DNA of 60,152 bases from a virus (taxonomy: Duplodnaviria > Heunggongvirae > Uroviricota > Caudoviricetes), in IMG/VR virus record IMGVR_UViG_3300034355_001008, one strand, 5' to 3'. Position 1 is the stretch's first letter. Every line of letters begins with the position of its first letter. The position numbers and the translations under genes were made by a program. Shown one piece after another: positions 1 to 11,959 of this stretch. The notes below the pieces were generated by a model, which did no database searches, was not told the DNA's origin, and worked only from the letters and a program-made list of their open reading frames with translations.

Positions 1-859
1 AAATAGAAACATATGCCAATTTAAAATTATCGGCAATCGCTTCTCTTCCTGCATAACCGCGAGGATTGGCTAAAATTTTTGTTTGTCCAATAATATAATC
101 TTGCGGGTGATGAATGTGACCAGAAAACCATGCAATAATATTTGGTCTATCAATAATAAATTGTTCTAAATCTGATGCATAAGCTCCATTAAGTAATTCA
201 TCATGAACGTAACTTGGATGAATTGATTTAAATGATGGCGCGTGATGCGTTACAACTACTACTTTATCTGTTTTCTTAACTATATCAATCCATTCAACAG
301 TTGCATTAAATTGTACAACAGCATCTAACGGAGTCCATCTAGCTCTAGCATCTGTTGGATCCCATGAATCAAAAGCTGTTGATAGTCTATTTTCGTCGTT
401 AGAATTGTCAGAATTGTAAATAATTCTAAAGTCATTCATTGCATAACTAACGCGCTCGATAGTTTCATCATGGCCATTATTCATATCAGTCCATAATGTT
501 GCTCCTAAAAAGGTTACACCGTCAATTACTACGCTTTCTTTTTCTAGGATATGTAAATTTTTAATGTATCCTAAATGTTTTTTTAAATCTTTTAAAGAAT
601 CTTTAATGTTATATCGATAGTGTTCATGGTTACCAAGAACATAAACAATATGTTTAAATTCTTTAGAACAATTTATAAAAAAATCATGTATTCTACCATT
701 TCGTCCATATAATAATTCAAATGGGTCATCTGGATATGGACCAAGTTGACTCACTAAACAAATATCCCCAGCTAAAACTAGTACATCAGCGTTTTCGCTA
801 TTTTTTAGTTTAATCGTATCGAACTCTAGGTGTAGATCATCGCAGTAAGCTATTTTCAT
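1..859 (-). CDS. Calcineurin-like metallophosphoesterase (3' end runs off window)
   Basis: Not in ORF track; manual translation from ATG at 859: MKIAYCDDLHLE...LAGDI...LGNHEHY...VTHHAPS...GHIHH...NPRGY, the typical metallophosphoesterase motifs. Confidence 0.9.
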   Translation of the reverse strand, partial: MKIAYCDDLHLEFDTIKLKNSENADVLVLAGDICLVSQLGPYPDDPFELLYGRNGRIHDFFINCSKEFKHIVYVLGNHEHYRYNIKDSLKDLKKHLGYIKNLHILEKESVVIDGVTFLGATLWTDMNNGHDETIERVSYAMNDFRIIYNSDNSNDENRLSTAFDSWDPTDARARWTPLDAVVQFNATVEWIDIVKKTDKVVVVTHHAPSFKSIHPSYVHDELLNGAYASDLEQFIIDRPNIIAWFSGHIHHPQDYIIGQTKILANPRGYAGREAIADNFKLAYVSI

Positions 860-870
860 AAATCCCCTTG

Positions 871-1092
871 TTAGTCAGCTTTTCTTATTTCTTCCAATGT
901 ATATACTCTATCATGAACAATAGTCATCATACCGATCTTAGTATTTAATATTTTGTAATATGAATTTTTAGTAGAACTATAGATTACACCAGACGCTATT
1001 ATAGCTCCAATAATAATACCATAAATTGCATAAATTAAATTGGTTTTGGTTATGTTCAAATCTATTTTTATTTCGGGTAAATTTTTAATCAT
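871..1092 (-). CDS. Small membrane protein
   Basis: One hydrophobic segment; preceded by early promoter at 1128-1163. Confidence 0.6.
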   Translation of the reverse strand: MIKNLPEIKIDLNITKTNLIYAIYGIIIGAIIASGVIYSSTKNSYYKILNTKIGMMTIVHDRVYTLEEIRKAD

Positions 1093-1127
1093 AATATAAG
1101 TTCTCTCGTCAAGTTTAGTTACAGCCT

Positions 1128-1163
1128 ATTATAATATATATCCTGCAGAATGTCAAGCACTTT
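1128..1163 (-). promoter_or_regulatory. sigma70-type early promoter
   Basis: Minus strand AAAGTGCTTGACA-N17-TATAAT; same motif recurs roughly 40 times in the window by eye. Confidence 0.85.
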
Positions 1164-1183
1164 TTCTAAAAAAGTTTTCCAGC

Positions 1184-1190
1184 CTAAATA
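1184..1190 (+). promoter_or_regulatory. Putative T4-type late promoter (CTAAATA)
   Basis: TAAATA core 36 nt upstream of endolysin ATG. Confidence 0.5.
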
Positions 1191-1226
1191 TAGGTAATGT
1201 TAATCAAATAAATATGGAGTTTAAGT

Positions 1227-2264
1227 ATGTTTAGCGGAATAAAAAACTGGATTGAAGTTGCAAAAACAGTTTCCGAAGTTATAACGGAAAAAAAATTATT
1301 AGAAAAAGAAGGAATAACTTCTACAATGGATGACCTTAAATCTATTGCAGTAGCAAAAGTTAATCCTGCTCCGGTTGAACAACCACAACCTGTTATCGAA
1401 GAAGTTAAGCCAGAACTAGTTGTGGTTAAAACTTCAAAAGTTGAACAAAAACCTACTGGACCTGTTATGGCAGCTAAAGGCGATCCAAAAGTATTTGAAT
1501 TACAAAAACAATTAATCGCTAAAGGTGCAAAAATTACTGCTGATGGTCTTATGGGACCTGCTACTAGAAAAGCTCAACAACAATTTGCTGAAAAACCTGC
1601 TACTCCTGATGCAGCTCCCGCTGCTTGTCATACAGCATCTGCAGGTGATTGCGTTACTGCTGATTTATTGAAAAAATTATTTCCCTCAAATAAAAACTGC
1701 GATGCTCTTTGTACGGCTTTATGTACTATCCTACCAAAATACGAAATTAACACACCAAATAGAATTGCCGCTTTCCTTGCTCAATGCGGTCATGAATCAG
1801 GTGGATTTACAGTTCTACAAGAAAACTTAAATTATTCAGCTGAGGGATTAAGAAAAATCTTTCCTTCTAGATTTGCAACAGTGGCTGCTGCTCAACCATA
1901 CCATAGACAACCAGAAAAAATTGCCAATAAAATTTATTGCGATAGAATGGGTAATGGTCCAGAATCTTCAGGCGAAGGATATAAATTTCGTGGACGCGGA
2001 GCTATTCAGTTAACAGGCAAAGAAAATTATAGTAATTTTGCAAAATCAATTGGTAAATCTCTTGATGAAACAGTTGCTTATTGCGAAACATTAGAGGGAG
2101 CTATCTGTTCAGCAGCATGGTTCTGGACAACTCGTAAACTTAATGTGTGCGCTGATTGTGGTGATATTCTTTCTATGACTAAAAAAATAAATGGCGGGAC
2201 TATTGGAATCGAAGACCGCAAGAAACATTACGAACACGCGTTATATGAAATTAAAAAGAGTTAA
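1227..2264 (+). CDS. GH19 endolysin with peptidoglycan-binding domain
   Basis: HESGGF...ENLNYS, GRGAIQLTGKENY and INGG GH19 motifs; LQKQL...ADGLMGPATRKA resembles PG_binding_1. Confidence 0.92.
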   Translation: MFSGIKNWIEVAKTVSEVITEKKLLEKEGITSTMDDLKSIAVAKVNPAPVEQPQPVIEEVKPELVVVKTSKVEQKPTGPVMAAKGDPKVFELQKQLIAKGAKITADGLMGPATRKAQQQFAEKPATPDAAPAACHTASAGDCVTADLLKKLFPSNKNCDALCTALCTILPKYEINTPNRIAAFLAQCGHESGGFTVLQENLNYSAEGLRKIFPSRFATVAAAQPYHRQPEKIANKIYCDRMGNGPESSGEGYKFRGRGAIQLTGKENYSNFAKSIGKSLDETVAYCETLEGAICSAAWFWTTRKLNVCADCGDILSMTKKINGGTIGIEDRKKHYEHALYEIKKS

Positions 2265-2266
2265 TT

Positions 2267-2560
2267 ATGGACGTTCAAATTCCAGCAAATTTTGATTATT
2301 TTGGTTTAATAGAAGAGGTTGGTTTTCCAATCACTCTTGCTATGGTTTGCGGTTGGTTTATTATGCAGGCTATGGAATTGGTATTAGGCAGTGTTGTTAA
2401 ATCAATTAAAAAATTAACAGGTTTAATTCGTTCAATGGATGGAAGAGTTCGTCAAATGAATACTGATGTATTAGAATTGGATGGATTAGTTTCTGGTTCG
2501 TTAATGGTTGACCCATTACCTGAAAATAGTTATTATACAATTAATCAGGAGGATAAATGA
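2267..2560 (+). CDS. Small membrane/coiled-coil protein
   Basis: GFPI-led TM helix plus coiled coil; resembles next two ORFs. Confidence 0.7.
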   Translation: MDVQIPANFDYFGLIEEVGFPITLAMVCGWFIMQAMELVLGSVVKSIKKLTGLIRSMDGRVRQMNTDVLELDGLVSGSLMVDPLPENSYYTINQEDK

Positions 2561-2841
2561 ATCCGGAATATGTAAAATTTTTTACAGATGTATTGGCTCC
2601 GACATTAGCGAGTTGTGTTGCAGGAAGTTTTATTTTTACTGCATTAAAATTTGTATTAAAAGATGTTATTGCAGCAGTTAATATTTTAGCGATTAGCGTT
2701 AAAGCATTAGAAAATAGGGTTAGATCTAGTTCACACGAATTAATTAAAATAGATGTAACAATTTCTTCAGTTTTAGGTTTACGTCCAGATTTAGAACGTA
2801 TTTCCAGAGCTGATGGAAAAAATGACGCAAGAAAAGATTAA
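2557..2841 (+). CDS. Small membrane/coiled-coil protein
   Basis: N-terminal TM plus coiled coil; 4-nt overlap with previous ORF. Confidence 0.7.
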   Translation: MNPEYVKFFTDVLAPTLASCVAGSFIFTALKFVLKDVIAAVNILAISVKALENRVRSSSHELIKIDVTISSVLGLRPDLERISRADGKNDARKD

Positions 2842-2853
2842 AAGGAAAAAATT

Positions 2854-3126
2854 ATGGGTGAAATAGGAGATTTAATATCTAAATACGGATTTCCAATTGT
2901 AGCAGCAGGTTACATGTTAAAGATGGTAAAATATGTTTGGTCATATACCATCGATGAAATTAATCCAGTATTAGGGGAAGCAAGTAAAGAGTTGATTGCT
3001 CTTATCGATCGTATTAGATTATTAGATAATGATTTACTACGTTTAACTGCTAAATTAAACACAGTTCTTCAAATGCGAGAACAGCAACAAGATCCAGTAG
3101 CAAAAAGAAATAATAGACAGAGATAA
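2854..3126 (+). CDS. Small membrane/coiled-coil protein
   Basis: YGFPIVAA TM followed by IDRIRLLDNDLLRL coiled coil. Confidence 0.7.
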   Translation: MGEIGDLISKYGFPIVAAGYMLKMVKYVWSYTIDEINPVLGEASKELIALIDRIRLLDNDLLRLTAKLNTVLQMREQQQDPVAKRNNRQR

Positions 3127-3129
3127 TAT

Positions 3130-3573
3130 ATGAAAAAATATTTACAATTATTTTTCATTATGTGTTTTTCAGTAGGAGTTAATGCAACACCATTGACGTT
3201 TGAATTTAAAGATCCATCATTTTCAGGAAATGGTTGGTCGGCTCAGGTTATAACTTTAGAACAAATTGAAGCGCAACGTAAACAAAAAATTAAAGACGAT
3301 CAATCGGCAGCAATTGCTAAAGCCGAAGTTGCTGCAAATAATAGCAATTTATCTAAATTTTTAGTTAATGTTGAATCTAGAATTTATGCTCAATTATCAA
3401 AACAATTAACTGATCAACTGTTTTCTGATACAGGAGCAACATCAGGGACAATGGATTTTCAAGGAACATCAATTAATTGGATTAAAACAGCTAATGATGT
3501 TACATTAACAATTATGGAAACAAACGGTAATACAACAGATATTACTGTGCCAATAGGACAATTCGGATTCTAA
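3130..3573 (+). CDS. csgF: Curli assembly protein CsgF-like
   Basis: Signal peptide, LTFEFKDPSFSGNG N-terminal motif, ESRIYAQLS; directly upstream of csgG-like gene. Confidence 0.82.
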   Translation: MKKYLQLFFIMCFSVGVNATPLTFEFKDPSFSGNGWSAQVITLEQIEAQRKQKIKDDQSAAIAKAEVAANNSNLSKFLVNVESRIYAQLSKQLTDQLFSDTGATSGTMDFQGTSINWIKTANDVTLTIMETNGNTTDITVPIGQFGF

Positions 3574-3574
3574 T

Positions 3575-4369
3575 ATGAAATATATTATTTTATCATTATT
3601 TTTATTACTTTCTGGTTGTTCACAACTTGCTCTAGAATTAGCAGCAGAAGAACCAGTTTCTGTTAAACCAAGAGCAAATCTATCAGAAAAACTTCCTTTT
3701 CTTGAAGGGGATTCAATTCCTATTTCTGTGTACGAATTTACCGATAAAACTGGGCAACGTAAACCGTCTGATAAATTAGCTCAATTATCAACAGCTGTTC
3801 CACAAGGCGCAGAATCTTTTGTTATTAAAGCTCTACAAGATTCAAAAAATTGGTTTAAAGTTGTTGAACGCGTCGGTTTAGATAGTTTAGTTAAAGAACG
3901 TCAATTAATTAGAAATCAAAGAGAAGTTTACGAAAAAACTGAAGCAAAACCATTAACTCCATTGATGGTTAGCGGATTAATAGTAACAGGAAGTATATCT
4001 GGTTACGATTCTGACATAAGATCTGGCGGTATTGGTTTACGATTATTTAAATTAGGTTTTACTGATGAATATCGTGTAGATAAAATTACTATTTCAATGA
4101 GAGTTATCTCAGTTGCAACTGGAGAAGTTTTGTTATCGGTAATAACAACAAAAACAATTTATAGTTTTGCCTCAGGTGGCGGAGCTATGATGTTTATTGG
4201 AACTGGTAATGTAACTGCTCTTGAAGCGGAAGTTGGTGATGCTGTTAATGAACCAATCACCGAAGGAGTTAGAGTAGCTATTGAAGATAGTGTTTATTCC
4301 ATGATACTTGAAGGTGAAAAGAAAGGTCTCTGGAAATTTAAAAAAGAAATGCAACCATTCCGCATATAA
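3575..4369 (+). CDS. csgG: Curli secretion channel CsgG-like lipoprotein
   Basis: Lipobox LLSGC; SVYEFTDKTGQRKP, STAVPQGA, WFKVVERVGLDSLVKERQLIR. Confidence 0.93.
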   Translation: MKYIILSLFLLLSGCSQLALELAAEEPVSVKPRANLSEKLPFLEGDSIPISVYEFTDKTGQRKPSDKLAQLSTAVPQGAESFVIKALQDSKNWFKVVERVGLDSLVKERQLIRNQREVYEKTEAKPLTPLMVSGLIVTGSISGYDSDIRSGGIGLRLFKLGFTDEYRVDKITISMRVISVATGEVLLSVITTKTIYSFASGGGAMMFIGTGNVTALEAEVGDAVNEPITEGVRVAIEDSVYSMILEGEKKGLWKFKKEMQPFRI

Positions 4370-4380
4370 AGGAAAAATAA

Positions 4381-5016
4381 ATGAAAAAAATACAAATATA
4401 TTTAATTATGTTTGTTATGCTTTTTGCTAAATCTGTATTAGCTAGTGACGTTTTTATTGAACAAATTGGAAGTTCTTCTGAAATTAAAGTAACTCAACAA
4501 GGAACTTCAAATAGAATAGGTAGTTCTTTAACTCCTTCGTTTTTTGGTGGAGATAGTAGTAAATTTACAATTGAACAAGTTGGCGCTGTTAATGAATTGG
4601 ATTTATTAATTAATGGTAACAATACAAATGTAACATTAGAAACATATGGTGCTGGTAATATCGAAAGTATTATTTGCGGAAGTAAAACTACACCAAATTC
4701 TTGCGATAATTCTACAATCGATTATACAATATCAGGTAATAATAATAAAATTACTACAAATTTAGGAGCTGCTGATAAATCTGCTACAAGTAAAATGAAT
4801 ATTTCCGGTAATAATAATATTGTTACTCATACAGGGACTCATACAAGTACTCTTGGTAGTAAAATATCGGCAGATTTAACTCTTATCGGAAATTCAAATA
4901 AAATTGATATGACTCAATCAGGAAGTTTGGATGAAAACATTAAAGTCACCAGCACAGGTAACAACAATAACATTAGCATTACTCAGTCTTCTGTTATTAC
5001 TTTACTCGCCCCGTAG
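4381..5016 (+). CDS. Curlin-like secreted repeat protein
   Basis: Signal peptide then repeated Q/I-x-G-x-x-N units (IEQIGSSS, TQQGTSN, IEQVGAVN, ISGNNN); follows csgF/csgG. Confidence 0.7.
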   Translation: MKKIQIYLIMFVMLFAKSVLASDVFIEQIGSSSEIKVTQQGTSNRIGSSLTPSFFGGDSSKFTIEQVGAVNELDLLINGNNTNVTLETYGAGNIESIICGSKTTPNSCDNSTIDYTISGNNNKITTNLGAADKSATSKMNISGNNNIVTHTGTHTSTLGSKISADLTLIGNSNKIDMTQSGSLDENIKVTSTGNNNNISITQSSVITLLAP

Positions 5017-6010
5017 TTTTGGAGCAATTGGTAAAGTTTCTGAACAAACTGGAGTAGCTGAAATACAGCGAAATAAACAATCGCTACCAAGTGCTGTTAA
5101 TACAGAAATTGAATCTATGGATGTCGTGGTTACTGCAAAAGGTAAACTCGACATTACTTTTAATGATAATACCAAAGTTTCCGTTGGCGAACAAAGTAAA
5201 CTTGTAATTGACGATTTTGTTTATGACGCTAAAAAATCCACAGGAAAACTTGGATTAAAAATTGCATTAGGAACTGTTCGTTATGCCTCTGGACAAATAG
5301 CAAAACATAATCCACAAAATGTTGGAATACAAACTCCAACGGCTACCGTTGCTGTTCGTGGTACAGATTTTTCTACAACAGTAGATGAATTAGGTCAAAG
5401 TACATTTATTCTGTTACCAAGTTGCGATTTATCTGGTTGCGTAACAGGAGCTATTGAAGTTTCTACAGATGCAGGTTTTGTTTTATTAAACCAAGCATTT
5501 CAATCAACTACTGTTTCTGATAAAACAAATTCTCCATCAAAACCAACTATAATTAATATTGATCCATTAAATATTAACAATAGCTTAATTGTATCTTCTC
5601 CAGTAAAAGCCGCTGACACAACAGTAACAGTTCAACAAATAAAAACTGGATTAGATGTTAATTTTCTTGATCAAGATTTTTTAACGTACAAACAATTAAG
5701 TATCAATTTATTAGATGTAAAAACTGATTTAGATAAAAATAAATTAGATGAAAAATTATTAACAAATGCATTAGACGAACCGATTGATGATATTAGTGAT
5801 ACGCTACCTGGATATGATGAAAAAACAAATTTAAAATATAATACAAATGGAAAAGCATTAGTTCTTGATAAAGAAGCAACCAAAAATAAATTTCAATTAA
5901 AAGTAGATAAAAATGCAGATGCAACTTTAAAATTAAATCAAGAAGGAACTGTTTTAACTCAAAATATTAACATGGGTACAACCACGAAAATAGATATTAC
6001 ACAAAAATAA
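4931..6010 (+). CDS. FecR-domain periplasmic protein
   Basis: Signal peptide; ITFNDNTKVSVGEQSKLVIDDFVYD, GTVRYASG, TPTATVAVRGTDF. Confidence 0.88.
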   Translation: MKTLKSPAQVTTITLALLSLLLLLYSPRSFGAIGKVSEQTGVAEIQRNKQSLPSAVNTEIESMDVVVTAKGKLDITFNDNTKVSVGEQSKLVIDDFVYDAKKSTGKLGLKIALGTVRYASGQIAKHNPQNVGIQTPTATVAVRGTDFSTTVDELGQSTFILLPSCDLSGCVTGAIEVSTDAGFVLLNQAFQSTTVSDKTNSPSKPTIINIDPLNINNSLIVSSPVKAADTTVTVQQIKTGLDVNFLDQDFLTYKQLSINLLDVKTDLDKNKLDEKLLTNALDEPIDDISDTLPGYDEKTNLKYNTNGKALVLDKEATKNKFQLKVDKNADATLKLNQEGTVLTQNINMGTTTKIDITQK

Positions 6011-6013
6011 TAT

Positions 6014-6763
6014 ATGGATAAAAAATACCAAAGCATTTTTATTAGCGATATACATTTAGGAACAAAAGATTCTAAAGCAATTGAATTAATTGATTTTTTA
6101 AAAAATAATACTTGCAATAAATTGTATCTTGTTGGAGATATAATTGATGGATGGAAAATACAACAAAATAAACTTAAATGGAAACCTAGTCATACAAAAT
6201 TAATTCATAAATTTTTATCTTTATCGAGGAAAGGAACTGAGGTAATATACATAACAGGGAATCATGATGAATTTATTAGACCAATGGTTAATCTTAACGT
6301 CACCTTTGGTAAAATTTCAATTCATAATCAATATGAACATAATGGAATTGATGGTAAACGCTATTTGGTAACTCATGGAGATTTATTTGATGGAATTACT
6401 AGACTTGCTCCATGGTTAAGTTTTCTTGGAGATAAAGGCTATGATTTAATTTTATCATTAAATAATAAATTTAATTGGGTAAGACATAAATTGGGATTTG
6501 GTTATTGGAGCCTAAGTAAATATTTAAAACATAAAGTTAAAAAAGCTGTCGATTTTATGTTCCAGTTCGAAATAAATTTAACAGACTATTGCAAAAAACG
6601 TGGATATGACGGCGTTATCTGCGGACACATTCATCACGCGGAAATAAAAAAAATTAATGGTGTAACATATATGAATGATGGAGATTGGGTAGAATCATTA
6701 ACGGCTTTAGTCGAACATCATGATGGTAGATGGGAAATTATAACATATAGTAAGGAGGAATAA
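6014..6763 (+). CDS. plcP: PlcP-like phospholipase C (LpxH2-type metallophosphoesterase)
   Basis: FISDIHLG, LVGDIIDGW, GNHDE, HGDLFD, YWSLSKYLKHKVKKAV, VICGHIHHAE, NDGDWVES match the PlcP subfamily; adjacent GT4 gene. Confidence 0.8.
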   Translation: MDKKYQSIFISDIHLGTKDSKAIELIDFLKNNTCNKLYLVGDIIDGWKIQQNKLKWKPSHTKLIHKFLSLSRKGTEVIYITGNHDEFIRPMVNLNVTFGKISIHNQYEHNGIDGKRYLVTHGDLFDGITRLAPWLSFLGDKGYDLILSLNNKFNWVRHKLGFGYWSLSKYLKHKVKKAVDFMFQFEINLTDYCKKRGYDGVICGHIHHAEIKKINGVTYMNDGDWVESLTALVEHHDGRWEIITYSKEE

Positions 6764-6930
6764 TGTATATTTTAGTGGCATTACAAGCAGTAGCAGCATT
6801 AGGAACTAGTCTTTTTTGGCAACCAATTGGCGATTTTAGTTCGTATGAATCTTGTAAAATGGCAATGGAACAATTACATAAATCAAAAGAGCATAGAGAA
6901 GGTGAAATGTATGTTTGCCTAAAAAAATAA
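6763..6930 (+). CDS. 55-aa hypothetical protein
   Basis: Not in track; AGGAGG RBS, MYILVALQAV...YESCKMA...VCLKK, fills the gap exactly. Confidence 0.65.
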   Translation: MYILVALQAVAALGTSLFWQPIGDFSSYESCKMAMEQLHKSKEHREGEMYVCLKK

Positions 6931-6931
6931 T

Positions 6932-7933
6932 ATGAAAAAAACTATCTTAATAATAACAGACAATTTACCGAACCAAATTAATGGCGTGGTAACTACATTT
7001 AATAATTTAAAACTTGTTGGCGAACAAGAGGAGTTTACTTTTGAATTTATAACTCCTCTAGATTTTAAACATATTAATATGCCAAAATATCCAGAAGTTA
7101 AATTAAGTTTTCCTTTTGGATTAACTAAGAAAATTAAAAAAATAAATCCAGATTTTATTCATATAGCAACAGAAGGTACTATTGGAATTGCAGCTAAATT
7201 GGCGTGTAAGAAAAATAAATGGAAATATAACACGAGTTATCACACGAATTTCCCAGAATTCGCTAAAAAGATTTACGGAATGCCAGAAAAAATTACATAC
7301 AAATTTTTACGTTGGTTTCATAATCGTTCTTATAAAGTTTTAACAACAACCAATACTATGGTTCAAGAATTAAAATCTAATGGATTTAAATGTGATGTTA
7401 TTTCATGGACTAGAGGTATTAATAGAGAAGAATTAACTCCAACTAAACCAAAAGAAAATAGAGAACAAATTATATTGTTATCTGTTGGTAGGGTTTCTAA
7501 AGAAAAAAATTTAGATGTATTATGTCAATTATCAACTAATCCGCAATATCACATTCAAATTGTCGGAGATGGTCCATATAGAAAAAAACTTGAAAAAAAA
7601 TACCCATTGGTAGAATTTGTTGGTTATAAATCTGGATCAGAATTAGCCGATTATTATGTTAATGCTGATGTATTTTGCTTTCCAAGTAAAACCGATACAT
7701 TTGGAATTGTAATGATTGAAGCAATGTCATTGGGATGCCCTGTAGCTGGATATCCAGTTGCTGGTCCAATTGATGTTATTGAATCTGATGTTAATGGTTA
7801 CATGGATGAAAATTTTGAAAACGCTATATTAAAATGTTTATCTCTTGATAGACATAAAGTTTATGTTAGCTCATTCAAATGGACTTGGGAAAATTGCTGG
7901 AAAATATTTAAAGAAAATCTTGTTCATAAATAA
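6932..7933 (+). CDS. GT4 glycosyltransferase (Agt-like glycolipid synthase)
   Basis: QINGVVTT, IHIATEG, YHTNFPEF, VGRVSKEKN, GDGP, FPSKTDTFGIVMIEAMSLG. Confidence 0.88.
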   Translation: MKKTILIITDNLPNQINGVVTTFNNLKLVGEQEEFTFEFITPLDFKHINMPKYPEVKLSFPFGLTKKIKKINPDFIHIATEGTIGIAAKLACKKNKWKYNTSYHTNFPEFAKKIYGMPEKITYKFLRWFHNRSYKVLTTTNTMVQELKSNGFKCDVISWTRGINREELTPTKPKENREQIILLSVGRVSKEKNLDVLCQLSTNPQYHIQIVGDGPYRKKLEKKYPLVEFVGYKSGSELADYYVNADVFCFPSKTDTFGIVMIEAMSLGCPVAGYPVAGPIDVIESDVNGYMDENFENAILKCLSLDRHKVYVSSFKWTWENCWKIFKENLVHK

Positions 7934-7958
7934 TGTTTTAATCTAACTTAAGGTAATC

Positions 7959-8717
7959 ATGAAAAAAATTGTTTTAGCTTTATGTCTTTTATTTTCTACA
8001 GCTGTTTTTGCAAATCCAATCGATGACAAATGTTCTCATTTTGCAACTTGGGGTGCTCCGCAAATTAAAACTGAAGGCGATAATCAATATATCTGCAAAA
8101 CCGGATATGCTGTTAACCTAAACTATAAAACCAAAGTTCCGTATTTTGTTATTGAACATATCACAGCTGACCACCTAAAAAAATCAGTTGGTAGAAAAGA
8201 TGATTTTCGCGAAGATGCTGAAGTTCCTGCTGAATACCGTGTAACATTAAAAGATTATGTTGGTTCTAACTTAGATCGTGGACACATGGCACCCGCAGCA
8301 GATTTCGTTTATGATGCTAAAGTAATGAGCGAATCATTTTTCCTTGATAACATGATGCCTCAAAGTCAACCATTAAATCGCGGAGCATGGAAATTACTTG
8401 AAGAAAAAACCCGCGACCTAGTTGCTCATGGCGATGTTTATGCTATTACCGGAACAATTTATGAGGGCGAATACAAAACTATTGGAAATAAAGTTGGAGT
8501 TCCTACTCATATTTACAAAGTAATTATTCAACCAAGCAAAGAACGAATGGTTGCATTTTTATTCCCTAATGAAAAAGTCGACCCAAAACAATTGGCAAAA
8601 TATATTGTTCCTGTTGCTGATTTAGAAGTTAAAGTTGGTGTTGATTTTTCTCCGGCAATTCCAGAAAATTTAAAAGCATTAGAAGCAGTGGCAGCGAAAT
8701 ATGAAGATTGGTTCTAA
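7959..8717 (+). CDS. Secreted DNA/RNA non-specific endonuclease (NucA-like)
   Basis: Signal peptide; DRGHMAPAAD, NMMPQ...LNRGAWKLLE. Confidence 0.93.
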   Translation: MKKIVLALCLLFSTAVFANPIDDKCSHFATWGAPQIKTEGDNQYICKTGYAVNLNYKTKVPYFVIEHITADHLKKSVGRKDDFREDAEVPAEYRVTLKDYVGSNLDRGHMAPAADFVYDAKVMSESFFLDNMMPQSQPLNRGAWKLLEEKTRDLVAHGDVYAITGTIYEGEYKTIGNKVGVPTHIYKVIIQPSKERMVAFLFPNEKVDPKQLAKYIVPVADLEVKVGVDFSPAIPENLKALEAVAAKYEDWF

Positions 8718-10716
8718 ATTAAAAGCATTATTAAGTCCTTATTGGGCATTGGTAACTCTACTGCTAGTTTTAGCAGTAAGGGTTGCCGATCCATCATTTG
8801 TTGAATCGATTCGTCTTCGCTATTTCGACACATTAATTACATCTAAAGCTCCAACAGAAAATAATGTTTATACAGTTAACATTGATGAAGCAGCATTAGA
8901 TAAGTATGGTCAATGGCCATTTAAACGCGATTTTTATGCAGATACAATTGAAACATTATATTTACATAATGCAGGATTAGTTGTATTTAATGTTTTAATG
9001 AGCGAAACTGACCGTTTAGGCGGAGATGATAAATTAGAACAAACTTTAAAAGTATTACCTGTTATTTTACCTAGTGTTCCTGCTGGTAAAACTAAAAATA
9101 CTCCAAAGAATCCTGGATCGGTAATTTTAAATCCAGAATATCAAGATAAAATAGTTAGCTATCCTGGAATTATTTCCAATATTTCTGCATTAGAAAATAG
9201 TTCTGCTGGTGTTGGAACTGTTAATACGCTACCGGAAATTGATGGAGTTAATCGCAGAGTTCCATTACTAACATCAGTTAACAATGTATTGTATCCATCA
9301 TTAAGTCTAGAAACGTTAAGAGTTCTTGCACAGGATACAACATTTCAAGTAAAACTAAATGAATTGGGTGTAGAAAAACTGCGCATTCCACAATTTGGTC
9401 CAGTTACAACAGATAGTCTAGGTAGAATCTGGATTGATTGGAGTCAAAAAAATCAAGCAGTAAGCATTACTGATATTCCTGCTGATTTTGGTGGAGCTGT
9501 GGTTATTGTTGGAACAACTGCTGCTGGTATTGTAAATCCATTATCAACACCAATTGGAGCAGTTTATCCGCAAGATGTTCAGGCGGCTGTTATTTCTACT
9601 ATGATTAATGGCGTAGTTATAGAACGTCCTGATTGGACAGATATGGCTGAAGCATTGGCTATATTCTTAGGAGGAGCCTTAGTTGTCGTTGGATCGCGCT
9701 GGACGTATGCATTTGTTCCGGTAATACTAACGTTAGGTGCAAGTCATTTCGCAGCTGCATGGGTCTTTAAGAGCTATAATATGCTCATTGACATTACAGC
9801 TTTTGTAATTGGAATTGCATTAGTTTACGGGCATGCATATACCGTTAAATTTCTTTCTGAATATTTACAAAAAGAGCAAATTAAAAAACAATTTGGCGGA
9901 TACGTTTCCCCTGTAATGGTTGAAAGATTACAAAAAAATCCAGATTTAATTAAATTAGGCGGAGAAAGAAAATTAATCTCCTCTGTTATGACGGATCTTC
10001 GCGGATTTACTACTTTAGGCGAATCATATGGTGATGATGTTGAGGGTTTAACTCAAATCATGAACGATTATATGACTGCTATTTCTGAACCTGTATTAAA
10101 AAATGATGGATGTATTATTAAATTTATTGGCGATGCAAGTTTACACATTCATGGTGCTCCATTAGATGATGAAAATCATGCGAAAGTTGCTGTTCAAACT
10201 GGATTAGAAATGGTTGAGGCTGTTACTCAATTTAATAAACAGTTAATTTCTCTGGGTAAACCTCCAGTTGGTATGGGTGTTGGTGTAAATTCTGGACCAA
10301 TTTTAATAGGTAACATTGGATCGAAATATAGATTCGGTTATGATGTACTAGGAGATACTGTATCATTAACTTCTAGATTAGAAGGGCAAACAAAAGGATA
10401 TGGCGTGTTACTAATCCTTGGGGAAACAACAGCTGAATTAGTTAAAGATGATTTTAAATTAGCAGAATTGGATTGCATTGCAGTTAAGGGTAAACATATT
10501 GGTGTAAAAATGTTTACAGTAGCCGAAACTTTACCTGCGCATCAACAATATTTGAATGCATATTATGCAGGAGATTGGGGATCTGCTAGAGTTATATGTA
10601 AACATTTAGCTGAACAACCTGGACCTCTACAACATTATTATGAATTAATGCTAGAAAGAATCTCAGGCGAATGTCCAGCTAACTGGGATGGCGTGTATCA
10701 TGCAACTTCCAAGTAA
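8701..10716 (+). CDS. CHASE2-domain class III adenylate/guanylate cyclase
   Basis: GQWPFKR CHASE2 region, three TM helices, TDLRGFT, IKFIGDA, GVNSG, GNIGS...YDVLGDTVSLTSRLE. Confidence 0.93.
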   Translation: MKIGSKLKALLSPYWALVTLLLVLAVRVADPSFVESIRLRYFDTLITSKAPTENNVYTVNIDEAALDKYGQWPFKRDFYADTIETLYLHNAGLVVFNVLMSETDRLGGDDKLEQTLKVLPVILPSVPAGKTKNTPKNPGSVILNPEYQDKIVSYPGIISNISALENSSAGVGTVNTLPEIDGVNRRVPLLTSVNNVLYPSLSLETLRVLAQDTTFQVKLNELGVEKLRIPQFGPVTTDSLGRIWIDWSQKNQAVSITDIPADFGGAVVIVGTTAAGIVNPLSTPIGAVYPQDVQAAVISTMINGVVIERPDWTDMAEALAIFLGGALVVVGSRWTYAFVPVILTLGASHFAAAWVFKSYNMLIDITAFVIGIALVYGHAYTVKFLSEYLQKEQIKKQFGGYVSPVMVERLQKNPDLIKLGGERKLISSVMTDLRGFTTLGESYGDDVEGLTQIMNDYMTAISEPVLKNDGCIIKFIGDASLHIHGAPLDDENHAKVAVQTGLEMVEAVTQFNKQLISLGKPPVGMGVGVNSGPILIGNIGSKYRFGYDVLGDTVSLTSRLEGQTKGYGVLLILGETTAELVKDDFKLAELDCIAVKGKHIGVKMFTVAETLPAHQQYLNAYYAGDWGSARVICKHLAEQPGPLQHYYELMLERISGECPANWDGVYHATSK

Positions 10717-11052
10717 TTAACACCCAGTATAAACGTTGTTAAACTCGACAATTGAATCATTTAATTCTTGATAAGTTTGATAAAAAATATTTGGTTTACA
10801 TGCGTAAAATTCACCCTGTATTCCTTTAATAATATAATCACCTTCTGTAGCGACATGGGCAATTTTATTTTTCCCATGTCCATCCTCTAGGGTTCCAATC
10901 TGCAACCATCCTTTGGCATCAGGATGCCTATCCTTTCCAGAGGCTATGAATTCGCTTCCAAGCCAATCTTTTAGTTCCTGAATACACTTATTGTTATATT
11001 CAAATTTAATCGCCTCAATGGTCACTGGGCGTTTCATATATTGTTTAATCAT
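10717..11052 (-). CDS. Conserved phage protein (KxPVxIEA...GDYIIKG...GEFY.CKP family), possible nucleotide-signal sponge
   Basis: KRPVTIEAI...EGDYIIKGIQGEFYACKPNIFYQTY; sponge role is recollection, unverified. Confidence 0.75.
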   Translation of the reverse strand: MIKQYMKRPVTIEAIKFEYNNKCIQELKDWLGSEFIASGKDRHPDAKGWLQIGTLEDGHGKNKIAHVATEGDYIIKGIQGEFYACKPNIFYQTYQELNDSIVEFNNVYTGC

Positions 11053-11284
11053 CTTCGAACACCGCTACGACTTCATCTTCTGAAACAACCCATAACTCTC
11101 CAGAAACATTTTTTGCTTTATTCCAATTCAAAAGAATAATGTCGCCCAATTTAAGTAATGTAACATCATGACCTAAGTTCATGACTTTTCCTTTTGTATT
11201 ATCTTCAGAGTTAACGCCATAAATTAAACCCTGATATTCCGCTTTTTGTTTTAAAACAAGAACGTTTTTTCCCAATACTTGCAT
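11045..11284 (-). CDS. groES: GroES-like co-chaperonin
   Basis: VLGKNVLV...GKVMNLG...LKLGDIIL...VVSEDEVVAVFE; 79 aa Cpn10 pattern. Confidence 0.8.
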   Translation of the reverse strand: MQVLGKNVLVLKQKAEYQGLIYGVNSEDNTKGKVMNLGHDVTLLKLGDIILLNWNKAKNVSGELWVVSEDEVVAVFEDD

Positions 11285-11304
11285 AATATTTTCCTATAGT
11301 TAAT

Positions 11305-11326
11305 AAAAGGGGATGTTTCCATCCCC
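11305..11326 (-). terminator. Intrinsic terminator after tmRNA
   Basis: GGGGATG-GAAA-CATCCCC followed by TTTT. Confidence 0.8.
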
Positions 11327-11645
11327 AAGCCGTTCTGTTTCCAAGTGGCTTAATCTCAGGCAATAGCTATCAAGCAGCTAAAGCCAGATTGTAAACGTCA
11401 TCGTTTGCATTTACTTTGTTTTATGCTGATTACGTCAGTCATCTCTCGTGTTGCCTTCTCTACTATCTCACCTGATCGAAACCATGACAGCCCCATCAAA
11501 AACATACTATTTGAGTCTTTAAACTCGATCACCATTCAGTAGATTACCGCGAATAGTCTACCTTCTGAGTCTAATATGTTTATGGTGAAGCTGGAGGGAT
11601 TCGAACCCTCGTCTCAGATGCCTTCATTTTGAAGGAGTTACAACA
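11327..11645 (-). ncRNA. ssrA: Circularly permuted (two-piece) tmRNA, tag ANDDVYNLALAA
   Basis: Acceptor piece ending GAGGGTTCGAATCCCTCCAGCTTCACCA (at 11583) precedes coding piece starting GGGGCTG (11494); tag frame 11408-11370; helix-2 pairings between pieces. Confidence 0.92.
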
Positions 11646-11959
11646 ATTCAGTTACTTTCCTGAGAAAGTTTACACAGTTTGCGCTTTAATAATAAAAGTT
11701 CAATAGTATTATCAAGCGTTTTTCTATAATTTAATATTTCTACTTTTTTCTTTAGTGAAAGATTATTAAAGTTTCTTCTTGTTACTGGCCAAATCTCACC
11801 ATTCATCTAGGTTTTCCTAGATTTAGCAGTACAACCAAAAAGAAAACAATTAATGCTAATTCAGAAATTTTAATCGCTATAGCTGGAACTGCCATTAATA
11901 ATAAAAAAAATAATACAACGCCTAATATAAATTTTTCAATTAGTTTCATAATTTAACCT

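What the first reader, a model, noticed from the sequence alone, without database searches (positions are those of the whole stretch)
3130..6010. Phage-encoded curli-type export system with candidate amyloid substrate
Seen: csgF-like, csgG-like lipoprotein, a curlin-like repeat protein and a FecR-like protein, contiguous and co-oriented with the endolysin behind a putative late promoter; no csgE/csgC/csgD recognisable. Established: CsgG/CsgF form the curli outer-membrane channel, and csgF/csgG have been reported in some aquatic T4-like phages (pelagimyophages), function unresolved. Inference: the cassette exports an amyloid fibre late in infection (aggregation, receptor masking, superinfection exclusion) or the pore assists lysis.
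Basis: partly seen in the sequence, partly recalled or inferred. Interest (0 to 1): 0.75.

Follow-up and report, generated by a model that had tools for sequence, protein, structure and literature searches.

The report
Known phage curli module, freshwater member

Summary
Window 3130-6010 encodes CsgF, a CsgG lipoprotein, a curlin-repeat protein and a FecR-domain protein, all Sec-exported, in a tightly packed 13-gene + strand block that starts with a GH19 endolysin.

It folds as a beta-solenoid (pLDDT 84) and matches solved CsgA structures by profile and by fold.

The finding is not new. HTVC008M and Melnitz carry the same cluster. PMC7029224, PMC9004378 and especially PMC9599517 already describe CsgF, CsgG, CsgA/B-like, FecR, an adenylate cyclase and small "HK" proteins as one conserved pelagiphage T8SS module. 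In 60 IMG/VR loci the core genes are present wherever the contig reaches.

What this work adds:
- This lineage is from lakes, where the operon was reported absent.
- The endolysin link holds in only some lineages.
- No T4 late box precedes the block.
- The "HK" proteins are about 90-aa membrane proteins with no kinase domain.
- The "FecR" is a periplasmic PupR-like domain without an anti-sigma part, and it ends in one curlin-type repeat.
- True Rhodobacteraceae curli loci lack FecR and the cyclase.

The most likely function is surface fibre export coupled to envelope sensing. This is unproven.

The parts
1106..1135 (+). Best + strand promoter candidate upstream of the block. It is sigma-70-like (TCGTCA-18-TATAAT), not a T4 late box.
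   Evidence: 10 of 12 positions match. One search finds no TATAAATA in 1-11959. This is a consensus match only.
1227..2264 (+). Endolysin: GH19 catalytic domain with a weak peptidoglycan-binding motif. No signal peptide or TM is seen by eye in the translation.
   Evidence: PF00182, 6.7e-8. (phrog_181 endolysin, 1.4e-77). Adjacent to the module in only some lineages.
2267..2560 (+). Small membrane protein tmA (97 aa): N-terminal hydrophobic helix followed by an amphipathic helix. Type-1 subfamily of phrog_18771.
   Evidence: No kinase domain.
2557..2841 (+). Small membrane protein tmB (94 aa), a paralog of tmA. Its C-terminal ...DARKD tail (DARRD in most relatives) is conserved.
   Evidence: phrog_18771, 2.7e-20..
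2854..3126 (+). Small membrane protein tmC (90 aa), type-2 subfamily. Its N-terminus resembles a PHROG holin family and, faintly, YvrJ.
   Evidence: phrog_18771, 2.1e-22; phrog_4898 holin, 7e-8 over residues 1-42. (virus-only clusters).
3130..3573 (+). CsgF-like protein with a signal peptide. The N-terminal motif F-x-x-P-x-F-x-G-x-G is invariant across relatives.
   Evidence: PF10614, 1.7e-18. (invariant F26, P29, F31, G33, G35).
3575..4369 (+). CsgG-like outer-membrane lipoprotein (lipobox LLSGC). The constriction-loop positions read S/Q/L where, by my recollection of the E. coli structure, E. coli has Y51/N55/F56.
   Evidence: E 1.9e-45 to the E. coli CsgG structures 3x2r and 6l7a.
4381..5016 (+). 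Curlin-repeat protein: a signal peptide, then about 7 strand-turn-strand units. It has an invariant Q/G/N ladder and two invariant cysteines. It is the only such gene in the 60-kb window.
   Evidence: pLDDT 84, pTM 0.78; 8c50, 1.5e-8; Z 15.4 to 8c50, 12.9 to 8enq.
4931..6010 (+). FecR-domain periplasmic protein: signal peptide, a PupR-CCSSD-like beta domain (about residues 30-215), a low-confidence acidic linker and a C-terminal curlin-type repeat. Its start overlaps the curlin gene by 86 nt.
   Evidence: Z 15.4 to 6ovm; hhalign score 26.0 against shuffles 10.8 +/- 2.2; 0 of 200 shuffles reach it.
6014..7933 (+). Variable cargo inserted in the module: an LpxH/PlcP-like metallophosphoesterase, a 55-aa ORF and a GT4 glycosyltransferase.
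Evidence: Present in only 4-5 of 25 well-covered loci and at differing positions.
7959..8717 (+). DNA/RNA non-specific endonuclease with a signal-peptide-like N-terminus. A frequent accessory of the module.
   Evidence: PF01223, 1e-51. Present in 8 of 25 well-covered loci.
8701..10716 (+). CHASE2 receptor with a class III nucleotidyl cyclase domain. It is the conserved last gene of the module.
   Evidence: PF05226, 1.7e-40; PF00211, 1.6e-19. Present in 31 of 31 loci that reach far enough.

Best explanation
This is a freshwater member of the phage T8SS (curli) module already described in pelagimyophages, OM43 myophages and HTVC023P-type podophages.

Most likely mechanism:
1. During infection the Sec-exported products are delivered to the host envelope.
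2. The CsgG lipoprotein forms an outer-membrane channel, and CsgF plugs into it through its conserved N-terminal motif.
3. The single curlin-repeat protein passes through unfolded.
4. Outside the cell it stacks into a beta-solenoid fibre anchored at CsgF.

The FecR-domain protein has no anti-sigma part. It ends in one curlin-type repeat. Together with the CHASE2 cyclase it forms a periplasmic sensing branch, as FecR/CHASE2 pairs appear to do in bacteria. The two or three small membrane proteins belong to the module; their role is unknown, and a holin-like role is possible.

What is shown: gene content, export signals, the predicted folds and conserved linkage in about 60 phage contigs. What is inferred: secretion, fibre formation, the coupling to sensing and any benefit to the phage (aggregation, receptor masking).
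For: The curlin-like protein:
- It folds with confidence as a solenoid of 7-8-residue strands.
- It is related to solved CsgA by profile (8c50, 1.5e-8) and by fold (Z 15.4 and 12.9).
- Its Q/G/N ladder is invariant across homologs that are only 28-89% identical. This argues for selection on the amyloid-type core, which a mere pore would not need.

Linkage across IMG/VR loci, counted only where the contig reaches far enough:
- csgF 57 of 57
- curlin 52 of 52
- FecR 48 of 48
- cyclase 31 of 31
- small TM genes 22 of 25, even where they have moved to the other strand

The same order occurs in HTVC008M and Melnitz.

Published descriptions:
- PMC7029224
- PMC9004378
- PMC9599517, which also reports metatranscriptome hits

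In HTVC008M the second curlin gene carries an N-terminal PA14 adhesin-type domain, which fits a surface fibre.

The FecR-like protein:
- Its fold matches the PupR periplasmic signalling domain (Z 15.4).
- Its C-terminus is curlin-like.
- FecR/CHASE2 pairing in bacteria is reported in PMC5192318 and PMC9239204.
Against: There is no experiment. Buchholz et al. saw no clumping of Melnitz-infected cells (PMC9004378).

The system lacks several curli accessories:
- No CsgE gate.
- No CsgC or CsgH inhibitor.
- In this window, no second (CsgB-like) curlin gene.

Other points against:
- The CsgG constriction residues differ from those of E. coli.
- Pfam Curlin_rpt only just passes its cut-off.
- The two invariant cysteines are atypical for CsgA (E. 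coli CsgA has none, by my recollection).
- In this lineage the block starts with an endolysin and holin-like genes, which also fits a role in lysis.
- The curlin-type repeat of FecR rests on a profile-profile score only. Pfam and a plain HMMER search do not see it.
Confidence: 0.55

Rival explanations
1. Lysis device. The CsgG/CsgF channel, ungated because CsgE is missing, together with the small membrane proteins acting as holins, controls or completes host lysis. It would do so by depolarising the envelope or weakening the outer membrane. FecR and the cyclase would set the timing. The curlin-like protein would be secondary.
For: In this lineage the order is endolysin, tmA, tmB, tmC, csgF, csgG with gaps of 1-12 nt. 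The endolysin shows no signal peptide or TM by eye, so it needs a holin, and tmC matches a PHROG holin family over its N-terminus (7e-8). An endolysin also lies next to the module in two other arrangements, L064 and L073. This hypothesis is published for Melnitz (PMC9004378).
Against: The endolysin is nearby in only 5 of 25 well-covered loci. Curlin is present in 52 of 52 loci that reach it, its Q/G/N ladder is invariant, and the whole of CsgF is conserved. A pore would not need either. By published structures cited in PMC7029224, the CsgG pore is far too small to release virions. The holin match covers only about 40 residues.
Confidence: 0.17
2. Permeability or uptake pore. The phage installs an open CsgG channel to let larger nutrients or cofactors into a host with few porins. 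The other genes would be accessory.
For: No CsgE gate is found. This hypothesis is raised in PMC7029224 and PMC9599517.
Against: It explains neither the conserved CsgF, curlin and FecR genes nor the cyclase. An outer-membrane pore alone does not bring solutes across the inner membrane.
Confidence: 0.08
3. Chance neighbourhood. The genes are unrelated cargo in a hypervariable island and do not work together.
For: The region is hypervariable. Unrelated inserts occur inside it: the PlcP/GT4 pair, a nuclease, and a 681-aa outer-membrane-like protein between csgF and csgG in 8 loci.
Against: The core genes stay together in every locus that covers them. This holds at 28-60% protein identity, through rearrangements, and across myophage and podophage families (PMC9599517).
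Confidence: 0.03

Closest known systems
Pelagiphage T8SS/curli module (Pelagibacter phage HTVC008M, Methylophilales phage Melnitz, HTVC023P-type podophages; PMC7029224, PMC9004378, PMC9599517)
   Same: The genes and their order match: small membrane proteins (called 'HK' in PMC9599517), CsgF, CsgG, a curlin-repeat protein, a FecR-domain protein and a CHASE2 cyclase. Protein identity to HTVC008M is 30-46%. CsgE, CsgC and CsgD are absent in both.
   Different: This member comes from lake-water metagenomes, whereas PMC7029224 reported the operon missing from freshwater pelagimyophages. It has only one curlin gene. A GH19 endolysin lies directly upstream. A PlcP-like/GT4 pair and a secreted nuclease are inserted between FecR and the cyclase.
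Alphaproteobacterial curli operon (for example Cognatishimia sp. MH4019, locus L071)
   Same: CsgG is 39% identical. Curlin-repeat genes lie upstream of csgG, with an unassigned 129-aa ORF at the csgF position. There is no CsgE.
   Different: The bacterial locus has CsgH, two curlin genes and a LuxR-type regulator. It has no FecR-domain protein, no CHASE2 cyclase and no small membrane proteins.
E. coli CsgG-CsgF secretion channel with CsgA/CsgB (PDB 6l7a, 6si7, 8enq)
   Same: CsgG aligns over its full length (E 1.9e-45). CsgF keeps the N-terminal F-x-x-P-x-F-x-G-x-G plug motif. The substrate is a Q/N/G-ladder beta-solenoid.
   Different: The constriction residues are S/Q/L rather than Y/N/F, the latter by my recollection of the E. 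coli structure. There is no CsgE, CsgC or CsgD and no separate nucleator. The substrate is longer and has two conserved cysteines. The CsgF match to the E. coli chain itself is not significant (E 0.5).
Bacterial FecR-domain / CHASE2 sensor pairs (Burkholderia BiofilmReg operon, PMC5192318; Campylobacterota CHASE2 adenylate cyclase clusters, PMC9239204)
   Same: An exported FecR-domain protein is encoded with a CHASE2-domain membrane sensor.
   Different: Here the pair sits inside a T8SS module. The FecR-domain protein carries a long acidic linker and a C-terminal curlin-type repeat. No binding between the pair has been shown anywhere.
Fec/Pup-type anti-sigma factors (PupR, PDB 6ovm)
   Same: The periplasmic domain has the same fold (Z 15.4, rmsd 2.7 over 134 residues).
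   Different: There is no cytoplasmic anti-sigma domain and no TM anchor, and no ECF sigma factor or TonB-dependent transducer lies in the block. Calling it an iron regulator is therefore unfounded.

Membership tests
Type VIII (curli) secretion system | CsgG-family outer-membrane lipoprotein channel | tested here: met
   PF03783 scores 151.9 bits against a cut-off of 20.8. The lipobox is invariant (L12, G14, C15). The protein aligns over its full length to E. coli CsgG structures at E 1.9e-45.
Type VIII (curli) secretion system | CsgG constriction residues as in E. coli (Y51, N55, F56) | tested here: not met
   The aligned positions read S, Q and L, with one extra residue in the loop. Relatives mostly have L/F at the last two. 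The residue types are similar but not identical. The E. coli residue numbers are from my own knowledge.
Type VIII (curli) secretion system | CsgF with the N-terminal CsgG-binding motif | tested here: met
   PF10614 scores 67.5 bits against 25.8 over the whole length. F26, P29, F31, G33 and G35 are invariant in 18 homologs. The direct match to the E. coli CsgF chain is weak (E 0.5).
Type VIII (curli) secretion system | Secreted curlin-repeat subunit with a beta-solenoid fold | tested here: met
   PF07012 scores 21.2 against 20.7 bits. The CsgA NCBIfam model gives 6.8e-7. A profile hits 8c50 at 1.5e-8. The AF2 model has pLDDT 84. Fold comparison gives Z 15.4 (rmsd 8.7 over 171 residues) to 8c50 and Z 12.9 (rmsd 8.6 over 109) to 8enq, although generic beta-helices such as SufD score as high.
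Type VIII (curli) secretion system | Separate nucleator subunit (CsgB-like second curlin gene) | tested here: not met
   Only one ORF in the 60-kb window matches the family profile. HTVC008M, Melnitz and L067 have a second copy.
Type VIII (curli) secretion system | Accessory factors CsgE, CsgC/CsgH and CsgD | tested here: not met
   None is found in the 13-gene block. CsgE and CsgH are absent above cut-off in five related phage records. CsgC and CsgD were checked only within the 13-gene block. These factors are not universal in T8SS outside the Gammaproteobacteria (PMC9599517).
Type VIII (curli) secretion system | Actual secretion and amyloid formation | not testable with these tools
   This needs expression, Congo red or ThT assays and EM.
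Published pelagiphage T8SS module (PMC9599517) | Gene set and order: small 'HK' genes, csgF, csgG, curlin, FecR, (second curlin), cyclase | tested here: met
   Only the optional second curlin gene is missing.
Histidine kinase (the label given to the small upstream genes in PMC9599517) | HisKA and HATPase_c domains | tested here: not met
   The three proteins are 90-97 aa long. Neither Pfam nor NCBIfam finds a kinase domain. They fall in virus-only clusters. Each has one N-terminal hydrophobic helix followed by an amphipathic helix.
FecR-type anti-sigma factor (cell-surface signalling) | Periplasmic FecR/CCSSD domain | tested here: met
   PF04773 gives 3.4e-11. The fold matches PupR CCSSD (6ovm) at Z 15.4 (rmsd 2.7 over 134 residues) and 4m0h at Z 13.6 (rmsd 3.1 over 140).
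FecR-type anti-sigma factor (cell-surface signalling) | N-terminal cytoplasmic anti-sigma domain, a TM anchor, and FecI/FecA partners | tested here: not met
   The protein starts with a cleavable-looking signal peptide, followed directly by the beta domain. No sigma-70 or TonB-receptor family is present in the block.
Phage lysis cassette | Holin next to the endolysin | tested here: inconclusive
   The endolysin is adjacent here. tmC matches the holin family phrog_4898 only over residues 1-42 (7e-8). The tm genes follow the curli module, not the endolysin, in most lineages.

The most novel reading that the evidence does not exclude
The FecR-domain protein may be a fibre-coupled sensor. Its C-terminal curlin-type repeat would dock on the curlin fibre, or nucleate or cap it, while its PupR-like domain reports to the CHASE2 cyclase. 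Assembly or disturbance of an extracellular amyloid on the infected cell would then be converted into a cyclic-nucleotide signal that tunes the infection, for example lysis timing through the linked holin-like proteins. That would be an amyloid-to-cNMP signalling path with no described counterpart. It would also give a first ligand logic for the widespread bacterial FecR/CHASE2 pairs.
Probability: 0.15. Interest if true: 0.65.

Novelty: new member of a known kind. Interest (0 to 1): 0.3.

Why it matters
[quoted passage not shown] It gives infected hosts that have no curli genes a new surface capability, yet its function has never been tested.

This window shows that the module also circulates in lake phages, and that it travels with other envelope-directed cargo: an endolysin, a secreted nuclease and lipid-remodelling genes.

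The refinements made here narrow what should be tested:
- The 'HK' genes are not kinases.
- The 'FecR' is not an iron regulator but a periplasmic PupR-like domain ending in a curlin-type repeat.
- The FecR/CHASE2 pair is a known type of bacterial sensor pair.

None of this changes the main point, which is that the finding itself is already in the literature.

Tried and rejected
- **Read laying:** I tried to lay the freshwater metatranscriptome runs X16-X19 on 1100-10800. I therefore have no per-gene RNA evidence. I know only that two RNA runs hold 21-25% of the stretch's sampled words, and that could also be carried-over DNA.
- **Complex prediction:** The job paired the mature curlin-like protein with the C-terminal 75 residues of the FecR-like protein. 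It returned no answer (score 0.02). This counts neither for nor against binding.
- **Foldseek against PDB:** The curlin model gave no match at E <= 0.001. VIA-align was needed to find the CsgA structures.
- **First genome-contig scan:** The single CsgG sequence found nothing. The alignment-based scan found 13 loci. Six of these are low-GC contigs carrying the whole phage module inside MAG bins with inconsistent labels (Polynucleobacter, Luteolibacter, Pirellulales, Legionellales, Rhodobacteraceae). I take them to be mis-binned phage contigs and draw no host from them.
- **Pfam Curlin_rpt in the FecR family:** It was not detected in any of 30 FecR-family members. A plain hmmsearch with the curlin profile does not hit the FecR ORF either. 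The C-terminal repeat rests on hhalign plus a column-shuffle control only.
- **Sub-threshold CsgH hit in G004:** This hit falls inside that phage's own curlin-like ORF. I rejected it.
- **T4 late promoter:** Rejected.
- **cAMP phosphodiesterase reading of 6014-6763:** I considered this by analogy with the Campylobacterota clusters. I set it aside because the gene travels with the GT4 gene, occurs in only a few lineages, and scores best against LpxH-type models.
Full report
**What is there.** Window 1227-10716 is one tightly packed + strand block of 13 ORFs. In order, it encodes:
- a GH19 endolysin, 1227-2264 (PF00182; phrog_181 at 1.4e-77)
- three paralogous 90-97-aa proteins, 2267-3126 (phrog_18771)
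- CsgF, 3130-3573 (PF10614, 1.7e-18)
- CsgG, 3575-4369 (PF03783, 2e-44; lipobox LLSGC)
- a curlin-repeat protein, 4381-5016 (PF07012, 21.2 bits against a cut-off of 20.7; NCBIfam CsgA, 6.8e-7)
- a FecR-domain protein, 4931-6010 (PF04773, 3.4e-11)
- an LpxH/PlcP-like phosphoesterase, a 55-aa ORF and a GT4 glycosyltransferase, 6014-7933
- a DNA/RNA non-specific endonuclease with a signal-peptide-like N-terminus, 7959-8717 (PF01223, 1e-51)
- a CHASE2 class III cyclase, 8701-10716

CsgF, CsgG, the curlin-like protein and the FecR-like protein all begin with Sec-type signal sequences. The exception is the 'late promoter'. TATAAATA does not occur before 11960. The best + strand candidate upstream of the endolysin is sigma-70-like, at 1106-1135 (10 of 12 positions).

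I aligned 25 homologs of the curlin-like protein taken from related phage contigs (A1). The alignment shows an invariant periodic Q/G/N ladder, two invariant cysteines and a common C-terminal ...ITQS end.

AlphaFold2 on this alignment gives a confident model (pLDDT 84, pTM 0.78). After the signal peptide it shows about 14 strands, mostly 6-9 residues long, separated by short turns, which is the pattern of a solenoid. A profile of the family hits the solved Pontibacter CsgA (8c50) at 1.5e-8, and E. coli CsgA (8enq) weakly at 0.025. Structural alignment gives Z 15.4 to 8c50 (rmsd 8.7 over 171 residues) and Z 12.9 to the E. coli CsgA fibril (rmsd 8.6 over 109). Generic beta-helices such as SufD score equally high, at lower rmsd. 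Foldseek alone found nothing significant. The 'not a beta-solenoid' refutation therefore fails, and the protein is a real curlin-type candidate substrate.

**CsgG and CsgF.** CsgG aligns over its full length to E. coli CsgG structures (E 1.9e-45). At the constriction-loop positions it reads S/Q/L where, by my recollection, E. coli has Y51/N55/F56. CsgF keeps an invariant F-x-x-P-x-F-x-G-x-G motif at the mature N-terminus. By my recollection this is the segment that inserts into the CsgG barrel in E. coli.

**It is already known.** The region matches Pelagibacter phage HTVC008M and Methylophilales phage Melnitz. Their GenBank records already annotate CsgF, CsgG and a 'curlin-associated protein' or 'curlin associated repeat protein'. 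Both also annotate an adenylate/guanylate cyclase, and the Melnitz record annotates a 'FecR domain protein', in the same order.
- Zaragoza-Solas et al. 2020 (PMC7029224) described the cluster in pelagimyophages and proposed 'sibling capture'.
- Buchholz et al. 2022 (PMC9004378) proposed a gated pore or pinholin role in lysis, and saw no clumping.
- The 2022 mSystems paper PMC9599517 identified CsgF, CsgG, CsgA/B-like fibre genes, FecR, an adenylate cyclase and preceding 'histidine kinase' genes as one conserved module in podophages and myophages. It found the module at all 65 GOV2.0 stations and in metatranscriptomes, and discussed aggregation, superinfection exclusion and uptake.

**Conservation, checked independently.** A scan of IMG/VR with CsgG returned 60 loci. 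I mapped the window's proteins on them and counted only loci where the contig reaches far enough:
- csgF is present in 57 of 57.
- The curlin gene is present in 52 of 52.
- FecR is present in 48 of 48.
- The cyclase is present in 31 of 31.
- The small membrane genes are present in 22 of 25. They lie either upstream on the same strand or downstream of the cyclase on the opposite strand.
- The endolysin is nearby in only 5 of 25, all from the window's own clade and the closely related clade whose CsgG is about 83% identical.

The endolysin also lies nearby in two differently arranged contigs, L064 and L073. The PlcP-like/GT4 pair (4-5 of 25) and the nuclease (8 of 25) are variable cargo.

**Bacterial comparison.** The bacterial-genome scan found true curli loci in Rhodobacteraceae. 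In Cognatishimia sp. MH4019 the order is a LuxR regulator, curlin, CsgH, curlin, an unassigned 129-aa ORF at the csgF position, CsgG and IalB. There is no FecR, no cyclase and no small membrane proteins. This agrees with PMC9599517 that these parts are phage-side additions. CsgE and CsgH are absent above cut-off from five related phage records, one of them 96% complete.

**What this work adds.**

1. *Habitat.* The stretch is held by lake-water and freshwater metagenomes. Fifteen DNA runs hold at least three quarters of its sampled words, and the 20 runs that hold any of it come from 17 studies. Two freshwater metatranscriptome runs hold 21-25% of the words. PMC7029224 stated that freshwater pelagimyophages lack the curli operon. 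I found no paper in the held library reporting it from lakes.

2. *The 'HK' genes.* They encode 90-97-aa proteins with one N-terminal hydrophobic helix and an amphipathic C-terminal helix. They form two conserved subfamilies. They have no kinase domain in Pfam or NCBIfam and have only viral relatives. tmC matches a PHROG holin family over its first 42 residues.

3. *The 'FecR' protein.* It is not an anti-sigma factor. A signal peptide leads directly into a beta domain that superposes on the periplasmic signalling domain of PupR (6ovm, Z 15.4, rmsd 2.7 over 134 residues). A low-confidence acidic linker follows, then three short strands at the C-terminus.

   That C-terminus is conserved as L-x-L-x-Q-x-G...Q-x-x-N-x-G...I-x-I-x-Q-K, including in HTVC008M and Melnitz. 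hhalign places it end to end on the last repeat of the curlin family (P 4e-4, probability 34%). The score of 26.0 exceeds all 200 column-shuffled controls (10.8 +/- 2.2, maximum 17). Pfam and plain HMMER do not detect it, so this remains a lead.

4. *FecR/CHASE2 pairing.* FecR-domain proteins paired with CHASE2 sensors are a recurrent bacterial arrangement (PMC5192318, PMC9239204). The FecR/cyclase half of the module therefore looks like an imported envelope sensor rather than an iron regulator.

5. *PA14 fusion in HTVC008M.* The second curlin gene of HTVC008M carries an N-terminal PA14 domain. This favours a surface or adhesive role for the fibres.

**Mechanism.** I favour fibre export, at about 0.55. 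In this reading CsgG and CsgF form the channel, and the curlin-like protein is secreted and stacks outside the cell. The FecR-like protein and the CHASE2 cyclase sense the envelope, possibly through the curlin-type repeat.

The main argument is selection. The amyloid-type ladder of the substrate and the whole of CsgF are conserved across lineages that share only 28-60% identity. A bare pore would not need either.

The lysis reading (about 0.17) gains real but lineage-limited support from the order endolysin, tmA-C, csgF seen here. The uptake pore (about 0.08) explains only CsgG. A chance neighbourhood is excluded by the linkage.

Nothing here shows secretion, polymerisation or any benefit to the phage.

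**Verdict.** However, the system is already described, and this is a new freshwater member with a somewhat different neighbourhood. Interest is modest. The only potentially new idea is the fibre-coupled FecR/CHASE2 sensor, and it rests on a profile-profile similarity.

Noticed in passing
window 1128-1156 (- strand): A perfect sigma-70 consensus promoter (TTGACA-17-TATAAT, 12 of 12) points leftward towards the 73-aa ORF (871-1092) and the metallophosphoesterase (2-859). It diverges from the endolysin/curli block.
   Followed up: no
window 7959-8717: A DNA/RNA non-specific endonuclease has an N-terminus that looks like a signal peptide, so it would act in the periplasm or outside the cell. It recurs inside or beside the curli module in several lineages: 8 of 25 well-covered loci, plus L073. 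It could degrade incoming DNA or extracellular DNA.
   Followed up: partly
window 6014-7933: An LpxH/PlcP-like phosphoesterase and a GT4 glycosyltransferase travel as a pair. They sit at different places relative to the module in L030, L031 and L046. They are cargo, not part of the T8SS.
   Followed up: partly
L020, L021, L033, L034, L039, L040, L059, L062 (for example L040:7956-10001): In eight related phage contigs a gene of about 2 kb is inserted between csgF and csgG. It encodes a 681-aa signal-peptide protein with no Pfam match. Its C-terminus ends in ...KVRMNF, like an outer-membrane beta-barrel or autotransporter.
   Followed up: partly
L022-L027, L030, L031, L043, L046, L048-L051, L054 (for example L054:9287-10534): Many related CsgG proteins carry a C-terminal extension of 110-160 aa. 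It ends in a bacterial SH3-like domain (SH3_3 at 4.2e-5, just under the Pfam cut-off). The window's CsgG lacks it.
   Followed up: partly
L001:9420-10745 (HTVC008M): The second curlin-repeat gene of HTVC008M is a fusion of an N-terminal PA14 domain (2.7e-6) with curlin repeats (5.2e-8). This suggests an adhesin displayed on a curlin base. The GenBank record calls it hypothetical.
   Followed up: no
L073 (contig in a MAG labelled Luteolibacter; GC 0.32): The locus is a mosaic. tmA-C are 67-84% identical to the window, and the nuclease and endolysin about 66%. CsgF and CsgG are only 42-44% identical, and tblastn detects no curlin gene. The cyclase, nuclease and endolysin lie on the opposite strand. 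This suggests exchange of sub-modules.
   Followed up: no
window 4931-5016: The FecR-like ORF starts 86 nt inside the curlin ORF, so its signal peptide is encoded in another frame of the last curlin repeat. Overlaps of 23-70 nt occur in several other lineages. The window's clade also has an 8-aa extension after the usual ...ITQS end of the curlin protein.
   Followed up: partly
L064-L067, L073, L075: Six low-GC contigs carrying the whole phage module are filed in MAGs with unrelated labels: Rhodobacteraceae, Polynucleobacter, Pirellulales, Luteolibacter and Legionellales. They are probably phage contigs that were mis-binned.
   Followed up: no
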